A stretch of DNA of 63,529 nt, the filler included, from Thraustochytrium aureum (taxonomy: Eukaryota): assembly GCA_012862495.1 (NCBI GenBank). It is 5 parts of 4 records of this genome, joined end to end, with 100 filler letters (N's around TTAATTAATTAA, not from the genome) between each part and the next. Parts side by side here need not be neighbours in the genome. Positions count along the whole stretch, not along the records: positions 21,405 to 45,074 come from BLSG01000269.1; 4 more parts are not named here. One strand, written 5' to 3'. The notes under the pieces were generated by a model. That model saw only the letters and a program-made list of their open reading frames with translations. It did no database searches and was not told the DNA's origin. Position numbers and translations under genes: made by a program. This document shows positions 21,911 through 51,624 of the stretch, one piece after another. The number at the start of each line of letters is the position of its first letter. Positions within the stretch are counted from its first letter, which is position 1.

Positions 21911-22844
21911 ATGGCTGCTGCAACCCCACTCGCAGGCCTCAAGGTGGTCGAGGTGGCCGGGCTCGCGCCAGCGCCCTTCGCTGGCATGGTCTTGGCAGAC
22001 TTTGGGGCAGATGTGATTCGCGTTGACCGCGTCGAGAAGGACGGGTCGGTGCGCATGACACCAGACACGTTGGCCCGCGGCAAGCGCTCGGTCGCGATCG
22101 ATCTCAAGTCGGCGAAGGCAAGGCGGTGCTGCGCAAGATGCTGGCCAAAGCAGACGTCTTGATCGAGCCGTTCCGGCCGGGCGTCATGGAGAAACTCGGC
22201 CTCGGACCCGACGAGCTCTGCGCCGCCAACCCGCGCCTCATTTACGCCCGAATGACTGGGTTTGGACAGGGCGGCGACCCCGCCGTGGAGCGCGCCGCCG
22301 GGCACGACATCAACTACATCGCAGTCTCGGGAATCCTCTCAGCTCTGCGGCGCGAGGGTGACGTCCCGCAACCCCCGATCAACCTGCTGGGTGACTTTGC
22401 CGGCGGCGGGCTCATGTGCGCGATGGGCGTCCTGCTTGCAGTGATCGAGCGATCCCGCTCCGGGCGCGGCCAAGTTGTGGACGCCGCCATGGTCGACGGC
22501 GCCTCGTACGTCTCCAGCTTTGTTTACCGCGCCGCTGGTATGGGGCAGTGGGAGAACGGGCTCGACTCTGTCGGCACCAACCTGCTCGACGGCGGGGCGC
22601 CTTTCTACGGCGTCTACACGTGCAAGGACGGCCAACACTTTAGCGTCGGGGCGATCGAGCCGCAGTTCTACGCCGCTCTCCTTGCGGGCCTCGGCTTGGA
22701 CGCGAAGCGCGATGGCTTGCCGCGCCAAAACGACCGGTCCTCCTGGCCAGCAATGAAGAAGCGCTTTGTCGACATATTTGCAACCAAGACGCGCGACGAG
22801 TGGGCCGAGATCTTCCGAGGCAAAGACGCCTGCGCGTTTCCCAT
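21911..22844 (+). CDS. AMACR: Alpha-methylacyl-CoA racemase (CoA-transferase family III), partial; frameshift near 22120
   Basis: [101 protein letters not shown]. Confidence 0.92.
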
Positions 22845-23761
22845 NNNNNNNNNNNNNNNNNNNNNNNNNNNNNNNNNNNNNNNNNNNNNNNNNNNNNNNN
22901 NNNNNNNNNNNNNNNNNNNNNNNNNNNNNNNNNNNNNNNNNNNNNNNNNNNNNNNNNNNNNNNNNNNNNNNNNNNNNNNNNNNNNNNNNNNNNNNNNNNN
23001 NNNNNNNNNNNNNNNNNNNNNNNNNNNNNNNNNNNNNNNNNNNNNNNNNNNNNNNNNNNNNNNNNNNNNNNNNNNNNNNNNNNNNNNNNNNNNNNNNNNN
23101 NNNNNNNNNNNNNNNNNNNNNNNNNNNNNNNNNNNNNNNNNNNNNNNNNNNNNNNNNNNNNNNNNNNNNNNNNNNNNNNNNNNNNNNNNNNNNNNNNNNN
23201 NNNNNNNNNNNNNNNNNNNNNNNNNNNNNNNNNNNNNNNNNNNNNNNNNNNNNNNNNNNNNNNNNNNNNNNNNNNNNNNNNNNNNNNNNNNNNNNNNNNN
23301 NNNNNNNNNNNNNNNNNNNNNNNNNNNNNNNNNNNNNNNNNNNNNNNNNNNNNNNNNNNNNNNNNNNNNNNNNNNNNNNNNNNNNNNNNNNNNNNNNNNN
23401 NNNNNNNNNNNNNNNNNNNNNNNNNNNNNNNNNNNNNNNNNNNNNNNNNNNNNNNNNNNNNNNNNNNNNNNNNNNNNNNNNNNNNNNNNNNNNNNNNNNN
23501 NNNNNNNNNNNNNNNNNNNNNNNNNNNNNNNNNNNNNNNNNNNNNNNNNNNNNNNNNNNNNNNNNNNNNNNNNNNNNNNNNNNNNNNNNNNNNNNNNNNN
23601 NNNNNNNNNNNNNNNNNNNNNNNNNNNNNNNNNNNNNNNNNNNNNNNNNNNNNNNNNNNNNNNNNNNNNNNNNNNNNNNNNNNNNNNNNNNNNNNNNNNN
23701 NNNNNNNNNNNNNNNNNNNNNNNNNNNNNNNNNNNNNNNNNNNNNNNNNNNNNNNNNNNNN

Positions 23762-24345
23762 GTCGGCGGCGAAGGATGCGGCGCGGCGCGACCAGACTGG
23801 GGCAGGCCGCGAAAGGCAGTGCGTCTCGGCAGCGGCGGCGCGAGTCAGCCTTGGCCGGGACAAGGAGGACCTCGAACTTGGTCGACGCGCCACGGCCGCT
23901 AAAGGCGGCGGAGCTCGATCATGTCTGCGTTGTGGTGCGGGATGTCGAGCGCAGCGTGGGGTTTTATCGGCGAGTGCTTGGGCTGGAGCTGCAGTTTGAT
24001 GGGGAGGAGCACTTTTGGCCACGGTGCGCGGCGTCGCCAGCGTTCATGGCCAACAACAAAGGCGCCAAAGTGGCGCTACTCCCAGCTGGGCGCGACGGGG
24101 AAGCGCGACTGGCTGCTCGCGCGGCGCTTGGTAGGCTTGGAGATCACTTTGCAGTTCGTGTCAGCCGAGAAGAGTTCCGCTTTGCGCGGGGCAACCTCGG
24201 CCGACTCCTTGCAGCGACTGGCGCACGGGACGCGGTCGAGGCTCATGACTACGGGCATCAGCTGTCCTTGTTCTTCGAAGACCTTGATTGCAACGTGGTG
24301 GAGGTGACGACGTGGGTCTCGCCATCAGACACGGAACGCCTGTGA
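23762..24345 (+). CDS. VOC/glyoxalase superfamily protein
   Basis: LDHVCVVVRDVERSVGFYRRVLGL, DHFAVRV, SLFFEDLDCNVVEV; start uncertain because of the adjacent gap. Confidence 0.85.
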
Positions 24346-26818: not shown

Positions 26819-29800
26819 ATGTCGCTGCGGCCAAAGTTGAGGAGCTTCGAGGAGGACCTCGAGGCGTTTGAGGCTGGCAAGCTTCAAGGCGCTGCTCGAA
26901 TTGTTGCTGCGAACGCCGCGGATGGGCCGGGCCGGGTGCGGGTGCGGGATCTGGCTCCGACGGCTGAGGATGGCTCTGCCTCGGCTTCGAAGGACGTGCA
27001 CGGTGGACGGGACGAAGTCGAGGAGCGCGACGATGTTGTGCAAGGCAGGCTAGCTCGCGGCAGACGCGTCACGTTCGACTTACCCTGTGAAGATGATGAT
27101 CCGGAGGCGCGCTTAGACTTGCACGACGAAATGCAGAGCATCAGCGGGATCTTGCACGGGATTTCGGAACGCGAGCGCAACGAAGTCCTCCCTGCGATGT
27201 TCCTGGGTCGGCGTCCAGCGCAGCCAACCGGTTTTCCGTCGACTTTTTCTGCCACGCCTGCGAAGGGGACTCAGCCTTTAAACGGGCAGGGCGCAGTTGA
27301 GACCGGGAACTCCAGGACGCCCGAAGCCGAGAACGAATCTCCCCCTCAACGGCCCATGTCCCTATTCAAACAACGGATGCTAGAAAAGCGAGGCGAGCTG
27401 CCCAGCAGAACCTCTGCCAGCAGAACCTCTGCTGGAGGCGAGAAGGCCACTGTGCATGCAGCCCCGCGAGGCGCATCGCCGTCACCCCCTCGACCTACAA
27501 CAACAGCAAGCGTTTCGAGCGAGATCGGTCAGGGCGCAAACCTTGAGCAAATGTCAGCAAGCGAGATCGCCGCGGCACAGCTTGAGATTCGCCAGACGTT
27601 TAGCCCGCAGGTCCTCGAAGCGTTCATGGCAAAGTTCGGGACAAAGCAGGCCAGCCCCAGCGCGCCAGCCGCGCCAAATACCCGGCCTTTAGTAGACCCT
27701 GCAGCTGTCCCTGCGTCAGATCGGTCCAGTGCGTCCCGCGTTCAAGACTTGTCGTGGATTCGGTCCGAAGAAGACCTGGACAAGGCGGTGAACGACCTGC
27801 TTCCAGACCTGGAGAAGGAGAAGCTGCGTTGGACCGGCAAGGTGACTGCGCCTCAAGGAGGGCTCGAGACCGGCGCCGCGCCGCGGGAAGCGGCGTTTCC
27901 AAAGGACAGCGTGAGTGCGATGCTAGAGTCACATGGGTACAAGCCGTCATCGGAGAAGCAACGCTTCGACCTCGAGGGCGACCTGGTTCGCGCCGACGCG
28001 GCGCCCGGGGAGGAATCAACACCATCGCAATCTGCGCTCTATCACCATGGCGACGACCCGGACTCTGCTGGGTACACGCTGAGTGAACTCGTTCAACTAG
28101 CGCGGAGTAAAGCACCAGCGCAGCAGGCGCTTGCGCTGTCGTGCCTCGAGAAAATACTTGACAAGCGGCACGCGGCGCTTTATGCCCAGCCGTCGCGGCA
28201 CCCCCTCTTCTCCCTGCCCATCCAGCTGCCAATGGTGCTTCGGGTCGCAATTGACGGCAGCAATTCTACAGCAGTAACCGCTGCGGTTCGAGCGCTAGCA
28301 GCCTTCCTCGTGCCGGCCACGTTGCTGAGGGATATCGCATTTGCGTGGCGGTGCCTGTCTGGCAGCGCCTTGGTGCTTCCTCCGAAAGTGCCGCGCGCTC
28401 AGGGGGCGGCCGCGGTTTTCGGCCCGGCTCTCGATGACGAGCCGGCATATGATGCTGACCAGGTCGATGAGAGCGACCCGACAGCCCAGCCTCCGACAGA
28501 CCCCGAGCTCATCCAAGGTTCTCCCGTGTACGGCTTGATCCACACCGGCCTGATAGATCGGATAGCTTTCCTTGTGGGTTCCAGGTCGCACCTCGCTGCT
28601 GGAGTGACGCTCGGTCCTGGCGGTGAAGTAGCTTGCCTTCGCATCTTGACGCATGTTGTGCTGCACTCGAACGACGGGCTGGAGGCGGTTCTGGCAGACG
28701 GCAAACTCATCGCTTGGCTCGCTGCCCGCAGTCGGACTGCCTTGGCCGACCTACGCGACGGCCGCCAGGCGGAGGCCGCGGCTGTGTTTAATGTGCTAGC
28801 TGTTTTGGCGGCCGCGCGGGCTGATGTGGCGCGCACCCTCGCTTCTTCGCCTGGAGGTGCTCTCGTTGCCGCTGTCGCAGAGGCCACCTTGCCTCCGTTC
28901 CGCTCAACTTCGGCGTATTCTCTTGCAAGGGTGCTCGCGGCCTGCGGCCACGCTGAGGCCCTCCAATTGGTGGCCGCCCAAGACGCCCCATCGCTTAGCA
29001 CATTGAGTGAACGTGGCGAGCCTGCGGCGCTGGCCTTAGTTCTTGCTCAGGCCGTGGACTCGCTGACGCCTGAACAGGTGGCGGCTTGGGCGGATCACTT
29101 TCGCCGCTTGCCAAGCGCCCCGCGGCATGCGGGCCCAGCCAGCTTCCTTGCTGCTGTCGTGAGAGCTACTTTGCAGCTACCTGCGGTCGAAGTTTGTGGG
29201 GCCGTCGAAGCCGACCTCGCGGTGGTATGGAGCGCCGCGGCTGCGGTACCGGAAGCCTGCGTTGGCTCTGACATCGACCGTGACTTGGATCGCACGTGCC
29301 AGACTTTTGCAGCGTGGCTCGGGGAAGAACTGGAGGCTGCCCAGGCGCATGATTCGCAGGTGCAATGGTCGGTTGCGCAGGTCGACCGCCTTGCTGCGCT
29401 GCTGGACCTCGGCCTTGCCCTTGCGAGCTCGGAGCCTTTGCGCCGGCGCCTCGGGCAGCTGCTGGCCAAGCTCGGTCATCGGTCCCGCCTGCGGGCGCTT
29501 CTCGTTGCCGAACGACTCGAGCTCGAGTCTGGCGTATCTCCAGAGCTCTCGTTTGTGGCTCTCTGTTGGGCCCGAGCTCGCTCTCTCGCTACGCTTCGCG
29601 CTTCCCGACTCCTCGTTCGCCTGTTCGGCTCAGTGCGTGCGCCGGCCGCCGGCCAGGGCTCGCAAGCTGCAGAGTTGGCGGCACGCCGGAAGGCGCTGTG
29701 CAACGCGATGCCGAGCGCGCCGCACCTGGCGGGCCTGGAGGCGCTAGCGCGATCCATCGTCTCCGCGCTCTACGCCCCGGGCCTTGGGCCTGTTCGGGCA

Positions 29801-30848
29801 AGAAGACCGGTCTGGGCCAACCAGGGTGAAGGAGGCCTTGCTGGACGCGCTGTGGGAGCCTTTGCTCGGTGAAGCTGGCGCCCTCGGTTCGTTGCGCATC
29901 GGCTTTGACCCCAGTGCGAGTCTGCGTCGCGACGAGAAGGCTGAAGGGCGGCTTGCGAGAATATGGGGGGCGCATTGGGCCGCCGCTCGAAGTGCTTGGC
30001 CCCTCCTCCCAGCACGGGCGGCTGTGGGCCCGGGGGGGCGCCCCTCCTCGCGGCGGCCTTGGATGCTGCGGCCACCTTGATGCGCGATGGTGGCATGGGC
30101 CCAGCAGATGTTGTTCTGCAGCTAGCTAGGCTACTTGCAGACCACAACGGTCCACGGGCCATGTTCGACGAGAGCTGCTCGCGTCGCATGAACCAACTTG
30201 TCGACCTCGCGCTGGACGGGCTGCTCCCCGACCCAGCCGAGCCTCCAAGCGCACACCGGCCGCAACAAGGGGCGTGGGTTGACGCCTTAGTATGCGCTGC
30301 TGGAGGCCGCGCCCAGCTGTTGAGCTTGTGGCAGAAGCTGATCGTCGCCTTCAACGAGCGACTCAATGGGCACGAGACAGCCGTCGCTCTTCTGCTGTTG
30401 GCGTTTCGCGCAGACAGCGACGAAGAGCTGCGACTCATTGCCTGGACCGACCTGCACGGGGCAAATTTGCTAGGCCTCCTGGAGCTACCGCGCTTGAGCC
30501 CTGTTGCTGCCCTTGAGGGCGACCTCGATGCATTCAAGCGCCCAGCAGAGACAAGCTTGGAGACTGTTCAGTGCATGGCGCACGCCCTCGCGCAACGCAC
30601 CTTGGGGAAGGGCAAGAACCCGTTCCTGACAGGGGTGGCGGTGTCGCACCTCGCGGCCTATTTGTGGCAAAGTGGCCCGCTGTCGTGGAATCGCATGCGC
30701 ATCCTCAAGCACTTGGCCCTCGATGGGGCATACTGGGACGTCTGCACAACATTGCCAGACGGGGCTGTCTACCTTGGCCCAGGCGGCGTCCCCCGCCCAC
30801 ACCCTCATGCTGTGGAGTCGATGCGTACTCTCGCGCGACAGGACCCGG
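26819..30848 (+). CDS. RPAP1: RNA polymerase II-associated protein 1 (partial; frameshifts near 29790 and 30000)
   Basis: LEQMSASEIAAAQLEI (RPAP1_N), EKEKLRWT, RFDLEG, LYHHGDDPDSAGYTLSELVQLARSKAPAQQALAL (RPAP1_C), then a long helical region continuing in ORF 29963.. Confidence 0.85.
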
Positions 30849-34561: not shown

Positions 34562-36250
34562 ATGTCCAACCCATTGCATGTTGATCAGACCGTGTACACC
34601 TCGTTCCTGTTCGTGGCCATCTTGAGCACCCTTCTGACGGCGTTCTACTTTGTGCAATGGCGCCAAGGACGATGCAACACTCACCCTTTGTACGTGCAAG
34701 CCGTCACGGCGGTGGTCTACAGCATGAGCGCTGCCGGATACGGAGGCTTTGTCTTCAGTAGCATCAAGTTTGACGACGGCTCGTTCGTGGCGGTTCCCAT
34801 CGCGCGGTACCTCTTCTGGGTGATGACTTGCCCGGTGATTCTCGCAGGCTTCATCTCCCTCTTGCACTACCGCGACCCAACCAAGCAGGACATTAATCGC
34901 ACAGTGTTCATTGTGGTCAAGGATTTGGTTGTCATGTGCTTTGGCGTGCTCGCTGCCATTCAAGCGCCAGGGCTCATGAAAATCTCGCTTCTCGTTGTCT
35001 CGTTTTCCGTCAGCTTTTGGCTCCTTACAGACATGTTTCTGATTGTCCGCGAGCGCTCGGCGGACTTTGACGGACGACTTTGGACGTGGCTCTCGATGGT
35101 CTGCGCGCTGTTCTTGACCAGTTGGCTCATCTTCCCGTTGCTCTACGTGCTTGGGCCGCCCGGGTACGACGCGATCACTCGCGAGGGCGACGCAATCGGG
35201 CACGCCATCGGCGACCTCATTGCCAAGGACGTTTTCGGCTTTATCGTGTGGTACTTTCGCTTCAACGTTGTGATTCCGCACAAGAAGGAGCTAGACCGAC
35301 AGGAGGCCAAGGACGCAGCGGAGGAAGTGAGCGAGTTTGGTCTGCTCATCAGCAACAAGCAAACGCTGGACGCCAAGGACAACGGACCAATGAAGGTGCT
35401 CGAGTACCACGGCACGGTTCTCGTCATTGAGCCCGAGCCGCACATCCAGCGACTCCTAATGTATGTTCTTGAGGAGGCCCGGCTTCGTCCCGTCTGTGTT
35501 TTTGACTTTCAGCAGGCTAGGGCTGTGCTGCGCCGCGGCCGCATGGACGAGTACAGCGCTGTGTTCCTCAACTTGGACTATGCGGTGAGCCACTTTGCAG
35601 ATGCTCGCGGAGCGATGAGCACGTTCAACAACGCGCCAGTCTCGACTCCGATTCTCGGGTTCAAGCTCGGCGCCACAGCAAACCCGCTAGTGGAGCGAGA
35701 ACTCGCTGATCCGCAGCTCTGCAACGCCGTTCACGAGTACACGATGGATGCGCGCAGCACCGTTGCTCTCGTCAAGTTCTGGGAGCAAACCGCCGCCACC
35801 TGGCGGAAGCGCGCAAGAGCACTTGACGAAGAAGCTGCTCTGCACAGCATGCCGTTCAACCCCGTCTCCGTCGGCAACTCGTACGGCCTCAACCGTTCGC
35901 CGCTTCGGGTTCGCAATTCGTTCTCGCTAGCCCCCAGCAACCAGCAAAGTCCTTCTACGCCGCAGCTCGCAATCGACACCGGAATTTCGCCGGCCGGCAC
36001 ACCGCAGCCGACCAGTGCAAGGTCGTCTGTTTCAAAGCCCAACTTCACCACGAGCCCCGTCGGCGATGTTCCAGACACGGTTTGCCTTTGTAACGCAGCA
36101 GGTTGCTCTCGCACAGCGACGATGCAGTGCGGCGCCTGCAAACTCGACCCCGCCATGTACTGCTCGCGAGAGTGTCAGCTTGCGGCGTGGAGTTCGCACA
36201 AGGGCAGCTGCGGCGGCACAACGCCCAGCGCGGCACTTGCTCTTGTCTGA
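34562..36250 (+). CDS. Channelrhodopsin-like protein A (probable anion channelrhodopsin) fused to a pseudo-receiver domain and a MYND zinc finger
   Basis: 7 TM; TM3 ARYLFWVMTCPVIL, TM4 KDLVVMCFG, TM6 SWLIFPLLYVLGP, TM7 GHAIGDLIAKDVFG (retinal Lys codon 35225-35227); receiver-like VLVIEPEPHIQRLLMYVL...AVFLNL...PILGF; C-terminal CNAAGC..QCGAC..YCSRECQLAAWSSHKGSC. First ATG is at 34562. Confidence 0.92.
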   Translation: MSNPLHVDQTVYTSFLFVAILSTLLTAFYFVQWRQGRCNTHPLYVQAVTAVVYSMSAAGYGGFVFSSIKFDDGSFVAVPIARYLFWVMTCPVILAGFISLLHYRDPTKQDINRTVFIVVKDLVVMCFGVLAAIQAPGLMKISLLVVSFSVSFWLLTDMFLIVRERSADFDGRLWTWLSMVCALFLTSWLIFPLLYVLGPPGYDAITREGDAIGHAIGDLIAKDVFGFIVWYFRFNVVIPHKKELDRQEAKDAAEEVSEFGLLISNKQTLDAKDNGPMKVLEYHGTVLVIEPEPHIQRLLMYVLEEARLRPVCVFDFQQARAVLRRGRMDEYSAVFLNLDYAVSHFADARGAMSTFNNAPVSTPILGFKLGATANPLVERELADPQLCNAVHEYTMDARSTVALVKFWEQTAATWRKRARALDEEAALHSMPFNPVSVGNSYGLNRSPLRVRNSFSLAPSNQQSPSTPQLAIDTGISPAGTPQPTSARSSVSKPNFTTSPVGDVPDTVCLCNAAGCSRTATMQCGACKLDPAMYCSRECQLAAWSSHKGSCGGTTPSAALALV

Positions 36251-37278
36251 GCCAATCAATACGTGAACTTGCTTCCAAACAACCTCAGCTTTTCCGTTTT
36301 GTCTTCGTGTGGGACGCTACTACTAAGTAGGCACTCTACGCCTCGCTCGAGCGCGCTGGGAGGTGTCGCTCGGGCTCGGCCGTCGTTCGTGTGTTGTTGA
36401 TTGTTGGTAGCAAATGAGCTCGAGCTCGAACACGGCCAGGTCCGTCGCAACGCATTGTTTGATTTCCTCGACTGCGCCCCCAGCCAGCGCATCTCGACTT
36501 GGACTTCACGAGCACCAAGACTTCCAAGGACCACGCACTCGCCGCATCGCTTCGAGCGGCCAACCCCCGCGTCAACCGCAGAGCCCTGCCGGCGGACACA
36601 AGTTGTGGTTTTGGGAGTTCTCCCAGAATCGACGTGCAAGAGCGCAGCAAGCGGCACGTTGGGAGGCCGAATCTGATCATGATGGCCAGCAGTGGCTGCA
36701 TTACATCCTCATCCGGGGATGACTCTCTTCGCCAGATCACGTGCGGCACTCAACGGCCTTGGCACTGCCGGCCGTGACTGTCCCTGAGTCAGTCGCAGAG
36801 TTGTCGTTCATCATGTGATACCTTCTCCACTTCTGCCTCACCAGCTTTCATGCCGACGACGTGACGCGAGGCACGTGCAGGGGGGGCAATTCGGCGACGC
36901 GCAGGCGGTGGGAGCTCTCACGGCGACGTCAGCGCGGCGTCAGCGACTCGAGACATGGTGCCGGTCGCTGGCAATCGTAGTCATACGCAAACTGGCTGGC
37001 GGACACGCGGTGCGAAGGGGGAGGGGGAGTTTTCCGTCGTTTTCCATCATCAAAACCAACGTGCACGGTGGCTGCATCTGGGACTCGGAGACACGCGTTT
37101 GCGATTTTGCGGTTCGCAGTCTGGCGAGGGGCGCACGCCGGAATTCATCAGCTTCGGTGCTTGCAGTCCTCCCCGCAGGTCAGTGCAACCTTTCAGAGGC
37201 AACGTGCCGTGGAGTGCAGTCACCAAACACGCAGCGACGGCGAAGCTCATCAAGAATCATCAGCACTCTACGAAGAAG

Positions 37279-38472
37279 ATGGGGATCCGAATCGCGGCAG
37301 CGGCGTTGGCCGCCGCGGCAGCCGCCGCAACACCAAGCTTTGCTGCTGGCAGCTTCCATTCGACAATGACCGTCACGGCCACAGCTTTCGAGGACCTCGA
37401 ATTCGACAAACGGTTCGAGTTCGGCGACCTTGTCGTCGATCCTCCGGGCCTCCTTGAGCGGTTCATCTTCGCGGCCGGATCGGCGTGCGAGATCCGGTAC
37501 ACCGCGCTTCCATGGGTGGTAAACTGCGAGGTCGATGTCGCGATCGCCATGGACAACTCTACGTTCAACAACGGCGAGCCAGTCGTGTTCCAGGCCTTTG
37601 TCGGCGCCGTGTTCTCGCAGAGCGTCGTTAATGGTGACACGGACAGCAACTTGGAGATTCGCTACGGTGTGACAACGCCGAAGATCGACCTCAACCTGAA
37701 ATGGGCCGAGGCGTTCGGGCTTGACCTGAACGTGCCCTCCTACACGTTTCCGCCCGACGCGGACCAGATTGGCCTGCAGGTGCCGCTCGGGCTGGTCTCC
37801 AATGGCGTCTGCTTGGCAGAGAACCTCCCAGAACTCGCGAGTTTGCTCATCGCCGTCAACCCCCAGCTCCGCGTCGCAGCAGAGGCCATCGACAAGATCT
37901 CCGACATCACCGGGACCGACATTTGCGCCAAGTTGGCTGAACTCGTGATTGCCGAGGACGGCACTCCAGGCGTGGCGCTGAAGATGGTCGTGTCGCTTCA
38001 CTTCCTGGATGAGGCGCTGATGGATGAGCTCAACCCAGCGGCGCGCGCGCTGGTTGTTCAGCTCCGCAACGCCTTGCTCAAACGCGACTCAGGGATTGTC
38101 TTGTCAGCTGACTTGGGCAAGCTCATCTTTGACAGACTCTCTGGGAAGTCAGAGCTGGCCGGCACGACAGCGGACACTTTGGATGGCGTCCTCGACAAGA
38201 ACGGTACATTCCTCTTCGGCTCGTTCACGCAGCTTGCCTCGGACGACAAGTTGACTCCTGGGTCGCCAGAGTCGCCCGAGGCCACCGAGGGGGAGCTCTC
38301 CCTTGTCGGACCGCTTGTGGGGACCGGCGTGGTTTTGGCGCTTGCGGCTCTGGCAAGTGTGGCGTTTGTGCGCGCTCGGCGCGCCAAGCAGCAGAACGAA
38401 TCAGTCGACCCCATGCAAGACCCCGTGGCCCACCGGGTTCAAGTTGCCAACCCGCGCTGGGGCACGGTTTGA
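37279..38472 (+). CDS. Uncharacterised type I single-pass membrane protein
   Basis: Signal peptide MGIRIAAAALAAAAAAATPSFA, about 330-aa ectodomain with 4 Cys, TM LVGPLVGTGVVLALAALASVAFV followed by RARRAK, short tail. Confidence 0.75.
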   Translation: MGIRIAAAALAAAAAAATPSFAAGSFHSTMTVTATAFEDLEFDKRFEFGDLVVDPPGLLERFIFAAGSACEIRYTALPWVVNCEVDVAIAMDNSTFNNGEPVVFQAFVGAVFSQSVVNGDTDSNLEIRYGVTTPKIDLNLKWAEAFGLDLNVPSYTFPPDADQIGLQVPLGLVSNGVCLAENLPELASLLIAVNPQLRVAAEAIDKISDITGTDICAKLAELVIAEDGTPGVALKMVVSLHFLDEALMDELNPAARALVVQLRNALLKRDSGIVLSADLGKLIFDRLSGKSELAGTTADTLDGVLDKNGTFLFGSFTQLASDDKLTPGSPESPEATEGELSLVGPLVGTGVVLALAALASVAFVRARRAKQQNESVDPMQDPVAHRVQVANPRWGTV

Positions 38473-38870
38473 GAATTAGATTGAGACCAAGANNNNNNNN
38501 NNNNNNNNNNNNNNNNNNNNNNNNNNNNNNNNNNNNNNNNNNNNNNNNNNNNNNNNNNNNNNNNNNNNNNNNNNNNNNNNNNNNNNNNNNNNNNNNNNNN
38601 NNNNNNNNNNNNNNNNNNNNNNNNNNNNNNNNNNNNNNNNNNNNNNNNNNNNNNNNNNNNNNNNNNNNNNNNNNNNNNNNNNNNNNNNNNNNNNNNNNNN
38701 NNNNNNNNNNNNNNNNNAAAGCGTCAAAATTGGATCGATCCCGTAAATCTGCGTTTACCTACCCCTGGTCTAGGATGGGTGCGTGGCACCTTGCGGCAAC
38801 CCGCGCGAGCCTTTCGGTCCCTTGCGATTTCTGCTGTGCTCTACCTGCGCTTTTAAACTCTAAGAATTGG

Positions 38871-40724
38871 TCAGGCCCCGTTGCGCAGCGTGGCACACTC
38901 TCGCTTGTGGGTTTCGCGCCAGTCCCTGACCTGGCAGTCACGGCCGCAGTACGCGCGTTGGTGGCACGCGCCGCACTGCATCTGGGCTCGGCTAAAGCAC
39001 CCACTTGCGCTGCACGTCTCCATTGGCAAGCTTGTTCCGGGCACTGTCAGTCTGGCATCAAAGGCGTTGTTCGCTCTCGGTGGCGACGCGGGCTGCTGCT
39101 CGGGCGTTAAACTACCACCACTTTGCTGCTGCAGCAGCTGCTGCTGCTGGCGCTCATTGAATTTTGTGTAGTCTGGGTTGCGTGGTGACTGCGACGGGTC
39201 GTACCAACGGCGGAAAGGGTCGTCAGTGTCGATAAGCGCTGCGTGCGAGGCGTGTCGGTCTAGCATGCCACTGCCTTGTGGCACCTCAAGGCTCGGCGGC
39301 TCGGTTGAGAACTGGGACGAGCCGGACTGGACCCTGTGAAGAGAGTTGGGTTGAAATATCACCCCACGCAGGTCTTGGTCCAGAGGTGCGGACTGTGAGT
39401 TGAACGACATTCTTCGGGCCTGCGACATCGCCGCTTCGCCGCCATTTCCAATCATGAGCTGCTCCTCCTCCTCGGAGGTCATCGCAGCGCGGCGCCAAAT
39501 GTCGCTTGTCTTGCGCCAATGGCGCACGAGGCGGCTAATGTACCGTTCATCGAGCAAGTGCATCATGGTTGCGTGGCACAGGTGGCGGTCCTCTGTTTCT
39601 TGCTCCATTAGCTTTTCGTCGTCCGTGCCGTTGGTGTAGCCGAGGATGGGGAAATGGTACGGGCGCTTTGAAAACACCTTCTTGAACTGGGAGGCCCCTT
39701 GACGGTTGTCAAACTGGTGGTGGAGGTTGACGAGGACAGCATCGAACTCGTCGAGGCGGCTTCGCAAGATGATCTGCTTTGCTTGGTCCAGGCTAAAAGC
39801 GAGGACAGTGTTGAGCCCAACCTCGCCGAGCATGTACATGAACAGGCGTTGGTATCCCACGTCGGGCTCCACAATGAGCACCGAGCCGACTACCTTGTTC
39901 TTGGACGGCTTGGAGCGACCTGCAGCCGGGTCTGGGCCGTTGTACTGGAGCTTTTTGGACTTGGCGACGCTGCCTGGCATGGGGACAATCGCGGCCTTGG
40001 CCTCCTCGCCTTCAATGAACGGGTAGATGATTCCGTAGCGCAAGTACCAGCACGCAAACCCAAACATGTTCTTGGCAAGCAGGTCGCCGATAGCGTGCCC
40101 GATGGCTTCACCCTCCGTGCTGATGATATCAAGTACGGGAGGGCCCAAGAAGTACAGGATTGGGAAGATGAACCAACTCGCAAAGAAGAGACAAGTAACT
40201 CCGACGAGCACGTGCCAAAGGTGACCTGGGTAAGAGTCCTTGCGCATCAGCTCCAAATGCACCGTCTCGTAGACGAGGGACAGGCTCACGCACAGGGCAA
40301 TCGACAGAAAAACACCCTTCCAAACCGGCGAGGACTGGAACGACGCAACAACACCAGCAGCCATGAGGACGAGGTCCCGAGTCACGATGAAGTTGATCTT
40401 GGTGAAAGAGATACGCGGCCCGAGCAAACCTATGGTCTGGAAGAAGCCCATGAGCATCGTCGGGCAGGTAATCATCCACGACATGTAGCGGCCGATGGCG
40501 ACAGGGCGGGCGCCGTCAGGGAAGACAATTGTTGCAAAGATGAATTCGCCTGCTCCGAAGGCAGTGAGCGTGTACACGATTGCGGTCACGCCTTGCACGT
40601 ACAACGGGTAGAGCAGGCAGCGACCTCGGCGGTACATGACCGCGTAGAAGCAGAAGAGCGAGCATGACGTGATTACGACGAGAAGGCTAGCCGCGAACGC
40701 GCCAGCGCCCTGCTCGAGCCCCAT
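38871..40724 (-). CDS. Channelrhodopsin-like protein B (probable anion channelrhodopsin) fused to a pseudo-receiver domain and a MYND zinc finger
   Basis: TM3 GRYMSWMITCPTML, TM4 RDLVLMAAG, TM6 SWFIFPILYFLGP, TM7 GHAIGDLLAKNMFG (Lys codon 40073-40071); VLIVEPDVGYQRLFMYML...FDAVLVNL...PILGYT; CSASGC..QCGAC..YCGRDCQVRDWRETHKREC. Confidence 0.92.
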   Translation of the reverse strand: MGLEQGAGAFAASLLVVITSCSLFCFYAVMYRRGRCLLYPLYVQGVTAIVYTLTAFGAGEFIFATIVFPDGARPVAIGRYMSWMITCPTMLMGFFQTIGLLGPRISFTKINFIVTRDLVLMAAGVVASFQSSPVWKGVFLSIALCVSLSLVYETVHLELMRKDSYPGHLWHVLVGVTCLFFASWFIFPILYFLGPPVLDIISTEGEAIGHAIGDLLAKNMFGFACWYLRYGIIYPFIEGEEAKAAIVPMPGSVAKSKKLQYNGPDPAAGRSKPSKNKVVGSVLIVEPDVGYQRLFMYMLGEVGLNTVLAFSLDQAKQIILRSRLDEFDAVLVNLHHQFDNRQGASQFKKVFSKRPYHFPILGYTNGTDDEKLMEQETEDRHLCHATMMHLLDERYISRLVRHWRKTSDIWRRAAMTSEEEEQLMIGNGGEAAMSQARRMSFNSQSAPLDQDLRGVIFQPNSLHRVQSGSSQFSTEPPSLEVPQGSGMLDRHASHAALIDTDDPFRRWYDPSQSPRNPDYTKFNERQQQQLLQQQSGGSLTPEQQPASPPRANNAFDARLTVPGTSLPMETCSASGCFSRAQMQCGACHQRAYCGRDCQVRDWRETHKRECATLRNGA

Positions 40725-44321: not shown

Positions 44322-44930
44322 ATGAGTGCGGATATGACCTGGAGCGAGACGATGAACGAGGTGCTGGACTCGCATGAGGTGCGCGAGAGCGTGGGCGAGG
44401 TCCTGCTGTGGGAAAACCCGACGACGAGCGGGCTCTGGTTTGGCGCTGGGCTTGCGCTGTACATTATGGTGGATGTGTTCCAAATCGGGCTGATGACTAT
44501 CATTGGAAGCATCGCAATCTTGCAGCTGCTCGTGTACAGGATATCGCTGTTCCTGCAAGGCAAAGGGATGGCCTTTGAGGACGTTGACCTCAAGGAGAAA
44601 CTCGTGCTGACCCCGGACCCTGCCAATGTCGCGAAGACCGTAGAGGTTGCTGGCGACGTGCTCCGCATTGTGGAGGAGTCCATCAAGGAGCTATCGCTGA
44701 CCTCGGATTACCTTCGCCTTGCGCAGGGCTTTAGCGTTCTGCTGTTCCTCAGCGCGCTGGGGCGCGTCATCACACTCCCCGTGCTGCTCCTTGCTACGTG
44801 GATCCTCTCCTTCAGCGGTCCTGTTGTGTACGTCAAAAACCAAGAGCGCATCGACGCGATCATGGACAAGTCGTTCGAGGCAACCGAGATGCTGCTGGAC
44901 CAGGCTGACGTCAAGGTCAAGGCGCGCTAG
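44322..44930 (+). CDS. Reticulon family protein
   Basis: VGEVLLWENPTTSGLWFG, two long hydrophobic hairpins, FSGPVVYVKNQERID; C-terminal KVKAR. Confidence 0.85.
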   Translation: MSADMTWSETMNEVLDSHEVRESVGEVLLWENPTTSGLWFGAGLALYIMVDVFQIGLMTIIGSIAILQLLVYRISLFLQGKGMAFEDVDLKEKLVLTPDPANVAKTVEVAGDVLRIVEESIKELSLTSDYLRLAQGFSVLLFLSALGRVITLPVLLLATWILSFSGPVVYVKNQERIDAIMDKSFEATEMLLDQADVKVKAR

Positions 44931-45174: not shown

Positions 45175-46222
45175 GAAGCTGGCCAACATAGACACGCGGC
45201 ATCGCGACGAGCTCTCTGCTGGGACCCAGCGCGAGGCCAACCCCACGCTCGAGCAACGCATCCGGTACTTGACAAAAGCGCTCATGTACGCCAACGCCGA
45301 GGCGGGCCTCGGCGGGGAGGCGCGCGGGATCAACCTGACGTACCTCAAAGACGAGCTGGACGTTGCGCGTTTGCAGAGCCAAGTCCTCGATGCGCTCGCG
45401 GACGACACGCGGCGTCTTGAGGCGGCGCTGCCAGAGCACGTCTCCGACGAGGTCAAGGAGGAGCTCGAGCAGCGCTCGCGCGCGCTGGAGACGCTGTCCC
45501 GCACCTTGCAAAACCCGACGAGCCTCTACAACGACTTTGCCTACCGGTTCGGCCTCTGGGAGGCGTGCATCAAGATCATTCGCGAGTGCGAGCACTCGGC
45601 GTCGGATGAGCTCTCCGCGGAGATCCGGGGCCTGTACAAGCGCATCCTGCAGGACGCCGCCGCGCCGCTCGTCAACGCCACTTTCGAGGCGCTCGCAAAC
45701 GCGCTGAGCGTCACTGTGCTGGACCTCGGCCGCAAGTTTTACGCAGACGGGGCGGAGCGCAGCAAGGCGTTCGTCTTCCCAGTCGAGTTTCTCGTTCAGG
45801 GTCTTGAAGACCTCGCCATGTTTCACCCCCACTCAAACGGGCCGCAGCCCTGGGACTCGTGGGTGCTCAAGACCTTAATCGAAGTCGGCGTCTCCTTTCA
45901 CGAGGTGTTTCACGCCTACAGCGAGTACATGCGGGTGATCAAGTGCGATGCGGCGCCACTGGGCCTCAGCTTCCTGTACGAATCGGATGAGGAGTTCGAG
46001 TACTCGGACCGGTCCAAGTTTCGTGTGGCCAAGGCTATCGTTGAGCTCGTCAATCGCTGGAGTCGCGCCTCGCGAGCTGTGCTGTGCGATTCGCGCGTGG
46101 GCGATCTCCTGGAGGGGCTCTCCATCTTTGTCGGCGGACTCCACAGCGACGACGTTAGCGACGCTGACCGGGCTGAGTTGAAGGCCAACCTCGAGGTGCT
46201 CATCGCAAAGGTCCGGGACTGA
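45175..46222 (+). CDS. NUP155: Nucleoporin Nup155/Nup170 C-terminal part
   Basis: PTLEQRIRYLTKAL, LKDELDVARLQSQVL, SLYNDFAYRFGLWEACIKII, FVFPVEFLVQGLE, WVLKTLIEVGVSF. Confidence 0.75.
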
Positions 46223-48650: not shown

Positions 48651-48985
48651 TGGAGCGACTCCTCGTCACACGGCCAAAACCACCGCATTTAAACCCCGCC
48701 TGCCCGCCACCTCCCGCTTGGGTCCCGCGAAGCCATCCTCCTGTTCCCCCGCACCTTACCCATGGCCGAAATTAAACCACGCGGGGAGCTTAAGGTCCGC
48801 CGCCCGAAAGCCACCCGCGCCATGAATCCTGCGGAGCTCCTTGCGCTCGAGCCCGCACGGCAGCCCAAGCCAAAGGTATGGTTAAGAGACGCGGGGAGGA
48901 CGCGAGCGAGTGGATGGTCGTCGTGGCAGAAACGGGGCGAGCAGACACCCAACGATCGAAGGCAACGAGCTGCGCGCGCGCCGCA

Positions 48986-48986
48986 G

Positions 48987-49054
<68 letters not shown>
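48986..49054. repeat. (GCAG)n microsatellite
   Basis: Perfect tetranucleotide run upstream of the LysRS gene. Confidence 0.95.
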
Positions 49055-49135
49055 TGCCCGGAGAGCGATAGCGAGGCAGCGCTGGTGCGGCAGGCAACGG
49101 AGGAAGGCAGGGCGGAGAGCGGCGGTTTTGGCAGT

Positions 49136-50865
49136 ATGGCGGACCGCGGTATTCCTGAGGTGGAGAATGATCCCGAGGTGATTGAGTGGAAGGCGCAGGT
49201 GGATGCGGGGACGCTGTCGAAGAGCGAGTTTAAGAAGCGGAAGAAGGCCAAGGAGACCGCGTTTAAGAAGTCGGCCAAGGATGCCGCCAAGGAGCCGAGC
49301 GCCGGCGCGGAGGAGGGCGGCCCCAAGCTCCAGGTGGACGAGGAGGAGCTCGACCCCAGCAAGTACTACGAGAACCGCAACAAGGCGCTCGCGGACTTGT
49401 CCGCCAAGGGCGTCGACCTCTACCCGCACAAGTTCCAGGTGACGATCTCCCTGCCAGAGCTGGTGGCCAAGTACGAGGGCATCGAGGACGGCTCGCACGA
49501 CGAGGAGGCCAAGGTCTCGGTTGCCGGGCGCATCATGGCCAAGCGGCAGCAGGGGTCCAAGATGGTGTTCTACACGATCCAGGCCGACGGCGCCAAGCTG
49601 CAGATCATGTCGCAGTTGCAGCACTACGAGAGCGAGGAGGCCTTCTTCGAGGTGCACAACGTTTTGCGGCGCGGCGACATCGTCGGTGTCTCCGGCTTCG
49701 TGGGCAAGAGCAAGAAGGGCGAGTTGTCCGTGTTCCCGCGGTCGCTCAGGTTGCTTTCGGCTTGCCTGCACATGCTCCCGCTGGCCAAGAAGGGCCAGGA
49801 CGCCCTCACCAACCAGGACACGCGATACCGCAAGCGGTTCTTGGACCTGATCATGACCCCGAGCACTCGCGACGTGTTTTACACGCGCGCCAAAATCATC
49901 AACTACATCCGCCGGTTCCTGGACATGCGCGGGTTTTTGGAGGTGGAGACACCAAACATGAACATGATCGCGGGCGGGGCAACGGCCAAGCCGTTCGTGA
50001 CCTTCCACAACTCGCTCAACATGGAACTCTTCATGCGTGTCGCCCCGGAGCTCTACCTGAAGAAGCTGGTCGTTGGCGGCCTCGACAAGGTGTACGAGAT
50101 CGGAAAGCAGTTCCGCAACGAGGGCATCGACCTGACGCACAACCCCGAATTCACCTCGGTGGAGTTTTACGAGGCGTACGCCGACTACAAGGACCTCATG
50201 GAGACCACCGAGCAGCTGCTGTCGGGCATGGTCAAGGAGATCTGCGGCTCGTACGTGATCCAGTACCAGCGCCTGGGCGAAGACGAGCCGCTGACGATCG
50301 ATTTCACGCCGCCGTTCAAGCGCGTGTCTATGATCGGCGGCCTCGAGGAGGTGCTCAAGGTCAAGATCCCCGAGGACCTCTCCTCGGAAGAGGCCAACAA
50401 GATGCTCGACGAGCTCGCCACCAAGCTCGAGGTGGACTGCGCCCCGCCACGCACCACGGCGCGCCTCCTCGACAAGCTCGTCGGCGAGTTCATGGAGGGC
50501 GACTTTATCAGCCCGACGTTTATCACGGACCACCCGCTGATCCTCTCTCCGCTCGCCAAGAAGCACCGGAGCAACCCTTTCCTCACCGAGCGCTTCGAGC
50601 TCTTCGTGGCAGGCAAAGAGCTTTGCAACGCGTACACCGAGTTGAACGACCCGCATGACCAGCGCAGCCGCTTCGTGGACCAGATGAAGGACAAGTCCGC
50701 CGGCGATGACGAGGCACAGTCCCACGACGAGTCGTTCTGCGAGGCGCTCGAGTACGGACTGCCGCCCACGGGGGGCTGGGGCCTCGGCGTGGACCGCCTG
50801 ACAATGTTCCTCACGAACAAGAACAACATCAAGGAGGTGCTGCTCTTCCCAGCAATGAAGCCCGA
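49136..50865 (+). CDS. KARS: Class II lysyl-tRNA synthetase, eukaryotic cytosolic type (end lies in a gap)
   Basis: [84 protein letters not shown]. Confidence 0.97.
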
Positions 50866-51624
50866 ANNNNNNNNNNNNNNNNNNNNNNNNNNNNNNNNNN
50901 NNNNNNNNNNNNNNNNNNNNNNNNNNNNNNNNNNNNNNNNNNNNNNNNNNNNNNNNNNNNNNNNNNNNNNNNNNNNNNNNNNNNNNNNNNNNNNNNNNNN
51001 NNNNNNNNNNNNNNNNNNNNNNNNNNNNNNNNNNNNNNNNNNNNNNNNNNNNNNNNNNNNNNNNNNNNNNNNNNNNNNNNNNNNNNNNNNNNNNNNNNNN
51101 NNNNNNNNNNNNNNNNNNNNNNNNNNNNNNNNNNNNNNNNNNNNNNNNNNNNNNNNNNNNNNNNNNNNNNNNNNNNNNNNNNNNNNNNNNNNAGGGATGC
51201 CGTTGTTGCTGAAGGCTGTCTTGCGCTTGTTGCTTGCCGAGGCTTTGGCTCTTTGGGTCGGGAAACGATGATACAAACTTGATGATCCCAGTATGATTAT
51301 TCAAATAGACTACAATTCCCTGATCCCACGACCAAAGAGGCCAGGCCTCGGGGGCGGGCGCGGTGTCGCAGCTGCCTGCGCGCGTGCTAGGGGTTCGGTT
51401 TGTCAGCGAGACACTAACATTTCGCTATAAACCCGCGCAGACCAAGCAGAAAAGACGAGCGGAGGCGACGAGGCTGCCGCAACCGAAGAGTAGACTCGGA
51501 AAGCCCCACCCGGCCACTGCACGTGCGGGCTCTCCGCGAAGTTACACGCGCGAAACAAGACCCTACTACAATAATAATGGAAATCCTCGTGAATGCCCGA
51601 GGGCCTGCCAGGGCATCGAGCTTG

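What the first reader, a model, noticed from the sequence alone, without database searches (positions are those of the whole stretch)
34562..40724. Pair of channelrhodopsins each fused to a pseudo-receiver domain and a C-terminal MYND zinc finger
Seen: two paralogous intronless ORFs, arranged tail-to-tail, share the architecture 7TM rhodopsin - receiver-like domain - disordered S/P/Q linker - MYND finger. Both keep the Schiff-base Lys, the TM3 TCP Cys, the TM4 Asp (DC pair of ChR2) and the GH.I.DL..K TM7 pattern. Known: these are channelrhodopsin hallmarks; receiver-like tails occur in some channelrhodopsins; MYND fingers are protein-interaction modules that bind proline-rich motifs. I do not recall a described rhodopsin-MYND fusion. 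Inference: a light-gated channel that also scaffolds or signals to partners, in what looks like a non-algal protist. The finger is retained in both copies although the linkers have diverged, which argues for function.
Basis: partly seen in the sequence, partly recalled or inferred. Interest (0 to 1): 0.93.

Follow-up and report, generated by a model that had tools for sequence, protein, structure and literature searches.

The report
Protist channelrhodopsins with MYND zinc fingers
Two already catalogued but untested light-sensor genes of a marine protist, likely light-gated chloride channels, each end in a MYND zinc finger, a protein-binding module found in one branch of this channel family that we could not find described, and it likely anchors the channel to partner proteins.

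Summary
Two intact ORFs (562 and 617 aa, convergent, with a third ORF between them) each carry a channelrhodopsin 7TM domain, an Asp-less receiver fold, a disordered linker and a complete MYND finger. The genes are not new: their first 300 residues match, by eye, the untested catalogue entries "T ACR2" and "T ACR1" of Thraustochytrium aureum, members of the labyrinthulean anion channelrhodopsins (ACRs). The receiver-like tail is published too. The MYND finger is what I could not find in print. It occurs in 7 of 16 proteins of the core thraustochytrid clade, from four named genera, including full-length SaACR2 and AlACR3, whose 300-residue constructs give photocurrents. The full-length red and green Aurantiochytrium/Hondaea-type paralogs I saw lack it. 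All eight zinc ligands and the proline-stacking Trp are kept in 7 of 7, while linkers vary from 84 to 192 aa. Databases already detect it automatically (HfACR3 is mislabelled "Programmed cell death protein 2"). Most likely these are anion channels whose tail is dispensable for gating, with the finger as a constitutive anchor for targeting or regulation. No partner is known. Verdict: new variant of a known kind, moderate interest.

The parts
34562..36250 (+). ACR gene A (562 aa): 7TM, pseudo-receiver, linker, MYND. First 300 aa match catalogue entry 'T ACR2'; sister to SaACR2
   Evidence: match by eye; 100/99 with P0003
34586..35269 (+). Rhodopsin 7TM domain of A (aa 9-236): F85 at the ChR2 E123 site, C90, D121, W188, P192, D218, K222, D223
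35408..35806 (+). Asp-less receiver domain of A (aa 283-415): N337 at the phospho-Asp site, Y393 at the Lys109 site
35849..36088 (+). Disordered Ser/Pro/Thr-rich linker of A (aa 430-509)
36089..36211 (+). MYND finger of A (aa 510-550): C510, C515, C523, C526, C534, C538, H546, C550; Q539 and W543
36955..38472 (+). Intervening ORF (505 aa; likely start M109 at 37279; hydrophobic stretches 113-131 and 446-475). Predicted single-pass membrane protein of no known family; no link to the ACRs shown
38871..40724 (-). ACR gene B (617 aa): same architecture. First 300 aa match catalogue entry 'T ACR1'; sister to SaACR3, near the AlACR3 lineage
   Evidence: match by eye; 100/97 with P0001
40029..40703 (-). 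Rhodopsin 7TM domain of B (aa 8-232): S82 at the E123 site, C87, D117, W184, P188, D214, K218
39492..39890 (-). Asp-less receiver domain of B (aa 279-411): N333 at the phospho-Asp site, T364 kept, H389 at the Lys109 site
39015..39467 (-). Ser/Pro/Gln-rich linker of B (aa 420-570), with a short block shared with P0001
38895..39014 (-). MYND finger of B (aa 571-610): C571, C576, C584, C587, C593, C597, H606, C610; Q598 and W602

Best explanation
These are two thraustochytrid channelrhodopsins, likely blue-to-green-gated anion channels, whose tails carry an Asp-less receiver domain and a MYND zinc finger that likely acts as a constitutive peptide-binding anchor rather than a light-switched output. 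Step 1 (shown by sequence and model): a retinal-binding 7TM domain with the labyrinthulean ACR residue pattern. Step 2 (inferred from orthologs): light opens a passive, probably chloride, conductance, and the first 300 residues suffice. Step 3 (inferred): the receiver cannot be phosphorylated (Asn for Asp, no Lys109) and serves as a structural or trafficking module. Step 4 (inferred from MYND family behaviour): the finger, on a flexible 80-190 residue tether, binds a short, probably proline-containing motif of a partner. That partner would target or cluster the channel in the zoospore's light-sensing membrane, or regulate its turnover. Approximate odds: channel 0.9, anion-selective 0.8, folded zinc finger 0.95, constitutive anchoring role 0.55.
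For: The residue pattern fits labyrinthulean ACRs: non-carboxylate at E123 (F85/S82), no Glu at ChR2 positions 82, 83, 90, 97 or 101, and D253/K257 kept (family definition). Both sit in a 99/99 clade with HfACR1, an AlACR2-type protein and AlACR3. The sister of A, P0003 (58.9% identical over 7TM), is SaACR2 at full length (2 differences in 300 by eye). P0151 is an AlACR3 allele. Both are listed as functional, were tested as residues 1-300, and end in MYND, so photocurrent does not need the finger. All 8 zinc ligands and the Trp are kept in 7 of 7 fingers and the Gln in 6 of 7. These match DEAF-1 W533 and Q529, which contact proline-rich ligands (PMC3555993). Over 20 pairs, mean identity is MYND 50%, 7TM 44%, receiver 33%, linker 19%, with linker length 84-192 aa. 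Two full-length fusions, P0001 and P0003, come from MMETSP entries (that MMETSP is a transcriptome set is recalled). In run X2 (RNA status only guessed), one contig spans 38899-40202 of gene B, from the finger to the last TM helices. A. limacinum ChR proteins fall after zoospores settle, significantly only for AlACR1, and table S1G marks AlACR3 as zoospore-enriched. Precedent: the MYND protein DAF-25/Ankmy2 localises a sensory guanylyl cyclase to cilia (abstract), and ChR receiver tails were proposed as trafficking signals.
Against: Neither window protein has been expressed (catalogue: Tested = N). Anion selectivity is marked as confirmed only for AlACR1 and HfACR1, not for the MYND-bearing SaACR2 or AlACR3. 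Gene A has Asp223 after the Schiff-base Lys, where the nine other aligned proteins have Asn. No partner is known. DEAF-1 ligand residues Met512 and Thr516 are not kept (alignment), so the PPPLI motif need not be the ligand. The Gln and Trp are common to MYND fingers in general (148 and 170 of 182), so they show an intact fold, not a specific role. Nine of 16 core-clade proteins show no finger (one is truncated), including AlACR2-type and HfACR1 paralogs in species that also have an MYND-bearing paralog, so targeting cannot depend on it in general.
Confidence: 0.55

Rival explanations
1. The tail is a light-regulated signalling output. Channel opening, or light-driven phosphorylation of the linker, unmasks the finger so that it recruits a partner only in the light, giving a non-ionic signal.
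For: In the model TM7 runs on as one helix to residue 260, close to the receiver. Basic Ser motifs (RRxS or RxxSF) occur in 6 of 7 linkers, four times each in AlACR3 and HfACR3.
Against: The finger is separated from the folded core by 84-192 poorly conserved residues (19% identity; pLDDT under 50), a poor route for allostery. The receiver lacks Asp57 and Lys109. Such Ser motifs also occur in 6 of 7 MYND-less relatives.
Confidence: 0.17
2. The finger serves biogenesis or disposal. It recruits a chaperone or ubiquitin machinery that folds, exports or removes this subset of channels, for example when zoospores settle.
For: Full-length AlACR1 and AlACR2 gave no membrane fluorescence in HEK cells, so native tails affect trafficking (both are MYND-less types). 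ChR proteins drop on settlement. The best PDB matches include fingers of MetAP1 and ZMYND10; their roles in protein maturation are recalled.
Against: No partner data. Similarity over 40 residues does not fix a function, and MYND-less paralogs also decline after settlement.
Confidence: 0.18
3. The finger is a promiscuous stramenopile domain picked up by chance, and has little function.
For: MYND fingers occur on many unrelated proteins in the hit lists (182 fingers in 49 proteins; diatom and oomycete hits). It is absent from 9 of 16 core-clade proteins.
Against: It is intact in 7 of 7 carriers across four named genera while the flanking linker has decayed. The fingers share a signature: Gly before Cys2 in 7 of 7 against 13 of 157 others, and M-x-C-G-x-C in 6 of 7 against 2 of 157. 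In leave-one-out ranking, 4 of 7 rank first of 183 and the others 2nd, 5th and 26th. One clade of all carriers is not rejected (AU p = 0.21).
Confidence: 0.07
4. Gene-model or assembly artefact: the finger belongs to a neighbouring gene.
For: Protist gene models do fuse neighbours, and two other rhodopsin hits look like such chimeras (P0037, P0072).
Against: Both ORFs are single open frames. Five independent homologs have the same order. A contig of run X2 spans finger to TM helices in gene B, and another runs from receiver into the finger in gene A.
Confidence: 0.01

Closest known systems
Labyrinthulean anion channelrhodopsins (Govorunova et al. 2020; bioRxiv 10.1101/2020.04.15.043158; catalogue in PMC8406140 Data Set S1)
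   Same: The window proteins are catalogue entries T ACR2 and T ACR1 (first 300 aa identical by eye). They share the TM2, counterion and TM7 pattern and the receiver-containing tail.
   Different: The catalogue rows seen stop near residue 300, and the preprint text read names only REC in the tail. Neither protein has been tested. The MYND finger is not mentioned.
SaACR2 and AlACR3 (functional Laby ACRs)
   Same: Nearest tested relatives (58.9% and 45.4% identity over 7TM). At full length they have the same 7TM, receiver, linker, MYND order (P0003, P0151).
   Different: Studied only as residues 1-300; the finger was never part of a tested construct in the text read.
RubyACRs (AlACR1, HfACR1)
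   Same: Same family, with a receiver-like tail.
   Different: The window proteins keep Trp and Pro where RubyACRs have Gln213 and Ile217. HfACR1 (P0007) has no MYND.
Prasinophyte/viral ACRs and green-algal CCRs with RR-like tails (Rozenberg et al., bioRxiv 10.1101/2020.04.15.042127)
   Same: 7TM followed by an Asp-less receiver with Asn at position 57.
   Different: No zinc finger in the text ('zinc' 0 hits) or in the Fig. S9 legend; the figure itself could not be seen.
MYND fingers of DEAF-1, ETO, ZMYND10, and DAF-25/Ankmy2
   Same: C4-C2HC ligand set, beta-beta-alpha fold, and the Gln/Trp of the peptide groove.
   Different: Those are soluble nuclear or ciliary adaptors. Here the finger is part of an ion channel, and the strand residues that read PPPLI differ.
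Histidine-kinase rhodopsins (enzyme rhodopsins)
   Same: Rhodopsin and receiver in one chain.
   Different: No kinase or cyclase domain here, and the receiver is degenerate.

Membership tests
Labyrinthulean ACRs | Schiff-base Lys in TM7 and Asp at the BR D212 site | tested here: met
   K222/K218 and D218/D214
Labyrinthulean ACRs | Non-carboxylate at BR D85 (ChR2 E123) | tested here: met
   F85 and S82
Labyrinthulean ACRs | No glutamates in TM2 | tested here: met
   ChR2 82/83/90/97/101 map to H,P,T,S,Y and Y,P,T,T,A
Labyrinthulean ACRs | Placement in the family tree | tested here: met
   16-row clade, 99/99, with HfACR1, an AlACR2-type protein, AlACR3 and SaACR2; catalogue identity
Labyrinthulean ACRs | Residue after the Schiff-base Lys | tested here: inconclusive
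   The preprint text says Gln, the catalogue rows show Asn; B has N219, A has D223
Labyrinthulean ACRs | Light-gated passive anion conductance | not testable with these tools
   Needs patch clamp; the catalogue lists both as untested
RubyACRs | Gln213 and Ile217 (with Phe108 and Tyr171) in the retinal pocket | tested here: not met
   A: F85, F148, W188, P192. B: S82, L144, W184, P188
Receiver (REC) domain | (beta/alpha)5 CheY-like fold | tested here: met
   Model of A against 3jte: Z 13.4, rmsd 3.2, 126 aligned. Family profile against 7qz2: E 1.8e-6. B was not modelled.
Phosphorylatable receiver | Asp57 and Lys109 | tested here: not met
   N337/N333 and Y393/H389
MYND finger (PF01753) | Eight zinc ligands (C4-C2HC) and Pfam cut-off | tested here: met
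   29.7 and 31.6 bits against 22.7; ligands listed
MYND finger (PF01753) | Gln and Trp of the peptide groove (DEAF-1 Q529, W533) | tested here: met
   Q539/W543 and Q598/W602
MYND finger (PF01753) | Binds zinc and a proline-rich peptide | not testable with these tools
   No partner known
Histidine-kinase rhodopsins | His-kinase domain between rhodopsin and receiver | tested here: not met
   Only about 45 residues separate TM7 from the receiver; no kinase hit

The most novel reading that the evidence does not exclude
A branch of thraustochytrid channelrhodopsins are dual-output photoreceptors: besides passing anions, they use a fused MYND finger to recruit a partner in a light-dependent way, linking zoospore photoreception to a non-ionic pathway such as flagellar trafficking, settlement or gene control.
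Probability: 0.15. Interest if true: 0.8.

Novelty: new variant of a known kind. Interest (0 to 1): 0.45.

Why it matters
What native channelrhodopsin tails do is poorly known, because channels are usually studied truncated. A small folded interaction domain on AlACR3, a functional channel of Aurantiochytrium limacinum (where gene knockouts have been made; recalled), gives direct bait for finding native partners. Its presence on some paralogs and absence from others in one cell suggests that colour channels are placed or regulated differently. It also corrects a database mislabel. It does not reveal a new channel family or a shown new mechanism.

Tried and rejected
No whole genome is held for the window, so the third catalogued paralog (T ACR3) and genome-wide MYND counts were not examined. 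The single-sequence AlphaFold model was useless (pLDDT 40.6) and was replaced by a model from a 67-row alignment. Pfam Response_reg misses the receiver in both window proteins; 5 of 15 family members hit weakly. Foldseek's listed rows were all rhodopsins, and the finger was barely tested by fold search. Viral contigs: 0 of 24 pattern matches were relatives. Metagenome contigs: 6 loci, none with a MYND finger in six frames, and no relative of the middle ORF. A MYND-profile search of longer proteins gave 27 hits and no rhodopsin fusion beyond those already found; P0159 and P0160 are unrelated multi-MYND proteins. No PxLxP or PPPL motif occurs in either protein, so no self-ligand of that type. 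Sequencing runs: no RNA holder listed; X2 and X3 are only guessed to be RNA, and their lack of cover over the middle ORF is not used as evidence. The control over a wider stretch was not obtained, so X2's RNA status stays open. Of the listed variants scored, 7 of 10 in A and 9 of 13 in B are synonymous (24 of the 64 rows were not shown, and a 3-base change at 39412-39414 was left out). The complex prediction of receiver with finger was not available, so intramolecular docking is untested. The trees need 2 changes for the MYND label and cannot tell one gain from gain plus loss. The middle ORF has no Pfam or Atlas hit. Earlier scan notes: nothing by sequence or by words. The PNAS version of the RubyACR paper is not held.
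Full report
Observation. The window holds two uninterrupted ORFs, 34562-36250 (+, 562 aa, gene A) and 38871-40724 (-, 617 aa, gene B), convergent, with a 505-aa ORF between them. They are 34% identical. Of 24 window ORFs scanned, these two hit Bac_rhodopsin and zf-MYND above the curated cut-offs, and their best PDB matches by sequence are channelrhodopsins. A six-frame scan finds MYND fingers at only these two places in the window. An AlphaFold model of A from a 67-row alignment (mean pLDDT 83.5) shows seven helices, a long TM7 extension, a (beta/alpha)5 domain at 283-415, a disordered stretch at 439-504 and a folded finger at about 510-550. The model matches ChR2 by Foldseek (E 2e-11). By VIA-align it matches KnChR (Z 27.2) and the receiver 3jte (Z 13.4, rmsd 3.2, 126 residues). 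A profile of 15 family receiver regions hits receiver domains in the PDB (best E 1.8e-6). The phospho-acceptor is Asn (N337, N333) and Lys109 is lost.

Identity. Data Set S1 of PMC8406140 lists 300-residue sequences 'T ACR2' and 'T ACR1' from Thraustochytrium aureum ATCC 34304. They match genes A and B letter for letter by eye, and both are marked untested. The genes are therefore catalogued members of the labyrinthulean ACR family, and the window is likely T. aureum. The residues fit the family definition in the RubyACR preprint: no TM2 glutamates, a non-carboxylate counterion site, and D212 kept. They lack the RubyACR Gln/Ile pair, so blue-to-green absorption is predicted. The receiver-like tail is published: REC with weak E-values, and an Asn-57 RR-like domain in labyrinthulean ChRs.

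Distribution of the finger. A profile search of 1.84 billion representatives returned 2690 hits at E up to 0.001, of which the best 150 were listed. Among the 158 proteins then held, 122 have a rhodopsin domain, 38 of those also have the receiver, and 5 of those have MYND: P0001, P0002, P0003, P0151, P0154. P0016, a fragment in P0151's cluster, has receiver plus MYND. By eye against the catalogue, P0003 is SaACR2, P0001 is SaACR3, P0151/P0016 is AlACR3 and P0154 is HfACR3. P0002 is an unnamed record. P0154 is GBG23965.1, labelled 'Programmed cell death protein 2', with both Pfam families precomputed. In a 52-row 7TM tree, all seven carriers fall in one 16-row thraustochytrid clade (99/99). They form two groups: A with SaACR2 (100/99), and B with SaACR3, P0002, AlACR3 and HfACR3 (98/98). 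The nine non-carriers include HfACR1 and an AlACR2-type protein; one of the nine (P0009) is truncated and uninformative. A 22-row 7TM-plus-receiver tree needs two changes, and one clade of carriers is not rejected (AU p 0.21). The fingers share a sequence signature rare among other fingers in hand, and 4 of 7 rank first in leave-one-out tests (others 2nd, 5th, 26th of 183). One ancient fusion is the simplest reading but is not proven. The comparison fingers were themselves picked by similarity, and many are repeats within one protein.

Is it a real fusion? Yes. Both ORFs are single frames. Two full-length homologs come from MMETSP entries. A contig of run X2, guessed to be RNA, spans 38899-40202 of gene B, and another spans 35374-36132 of gene A, reaching 44 bases into the finger. 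No joints fall inside either ORF.

How it likely works. SaACR2 and AlACR3 gave photocurrents as residues 1-300, so the tail is not needed for gating. Anion selectivity was confirmed only for AlACR1 and HfACR1, so it is inferred for this branch. The receiver cannot take a phosphate. The finger keeps all eight ligands and the Trp in 7 of 7 carriers and the Gln in 6 of 7; in DEAF-1 and ETO these two residues contact proline-rich peptides. It is well conserved (50%, partly because of its invariant ligands), while the linker is 19% identical and 84-192 residues long. A conserved binding module on a long, variable tether fits a constitutive anchor better than an allosteric output. I put 0.55 on targeting or clustering through a partner, 0.18 on a biogenesis or turnover adaptor, 0.17 on light-regulated signalling and 0.07 on a passenger domain. 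Context fits a zoospore role: ChR proteins of A. limacinum decline after settlement, significantly only for AlACR1, and AlACR3 is marked zoospore-enriched in table S1G. DAF-25/Ankmy2 is a precedent for a MYND protein placing a sensory membrane protein in cilia. Against this, MYND-less paralogs exist in the same species, no partner is known, and some PPPLI-reading residues differ.

Novelty. 'channelrhodopsin' with 'MYND' gave 1 paper at word start and 3 anywhere, none on rhodopsin biology by title or abstract. 'rhodopsin' with 'MYND' gave 24 papers, 23 listed, none on a fusion by title or abstract. Broader searches added none. The library lacks most subscription papers. I could not see the PNAS and Current Biology versions, the bioRxiv supplements, the Fig. 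S9 image, the large proteomics table of PMC12221091, or the Catalog of Natural Channelrhodopsins; any of these could mention the finger. What I read: 10.1101/2020.04.15.043158, parts 1-2 of 4 plus passages; 10.1101/2020.04.15.042127, passages and section 7; PMC8406140, passages and supplement rows; PMC12221091, passages and supplements; passages only of PMC8818676, PMC11473104, PMC3555993, PMC10016063 and PMC12558739; abstract only of PMC2991253.

Verdict. A real feature and a new variant of a known kind: known genes, known family, known pseudo-receiver, plus an apparently undescribed but machine-annotated MYND fusion conserved across a branch of the family.

Noticed in passing
window 36955-38472 (+): Orphan ORF between the two ACR genes. 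It likely starts at M109, with a signal-like stretch and one C-terminal TM segment; no Pfam or Atlas hit, and no relative in loci L001-L006.
   Followed up: partly
window 35228-35230 (gene A, D223): Asp directly after the Schiff-base Lys, where the nine other aligned proteins, ChR2 included, have Asn; may affect spectrum or selectivity.
   Followed up: no
P0154 (GBG23965.1): HfACR3 is annotated 'Programmed cell death protein 2', a mislabel probably driven by the MYND finger.
   Followed up: yes
P0004 (CAK9108303.1): Labelled Durusdinium trenchii (a dinoflagellate) but nests with thraustochytrid AlACR2-type proteins (98/93); possibly thraustochytrid contamination of that assembly.
   Followed up: no
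P0001 against catalogue SaACR3: The catalogue model jumps from the end of TM7 into the middle of the receiver, lacking about 80 residues present in P0001.
   Followed up: no
P0037 and P0072: RhoGEF plus partial channelrhodopsin (862 aa), and alanine-racemase-like plus channelrhodopsin (997 aa); probably gene-model chimeras, not checked.
   Followed up: no
P0005, P0009, P0011: Three MYND-less ACR paralogs report the same longest-contig length (136917), hinting at a paralog cluster like the pair in this window.
   Followed up: no
window about 39165-39225 (gene B aa 500-520) and P0001: A short block in the otherwise divergent linker is conserved between gene B and SaACR3; a candidate linear motif.
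   Followed up: no
P0151 and P0154 linkers: Tandem RQNSF repeats just before the finger in AlACR3 and HfACR3 resemble basophilic kinase sites.
   Followed up: partly
window 26819-29872, 44322-44930, 48878-51271, 45284-46222, 22138-24345, 60492-62492: Other genes by Pfam: RPAP1-like, reticulon, class II tRNA synthetase, nucleoporin fragment, CoA-transferase III with glyoxalase, LtrA-like; no evident link to light sensing.
   Followed up: no
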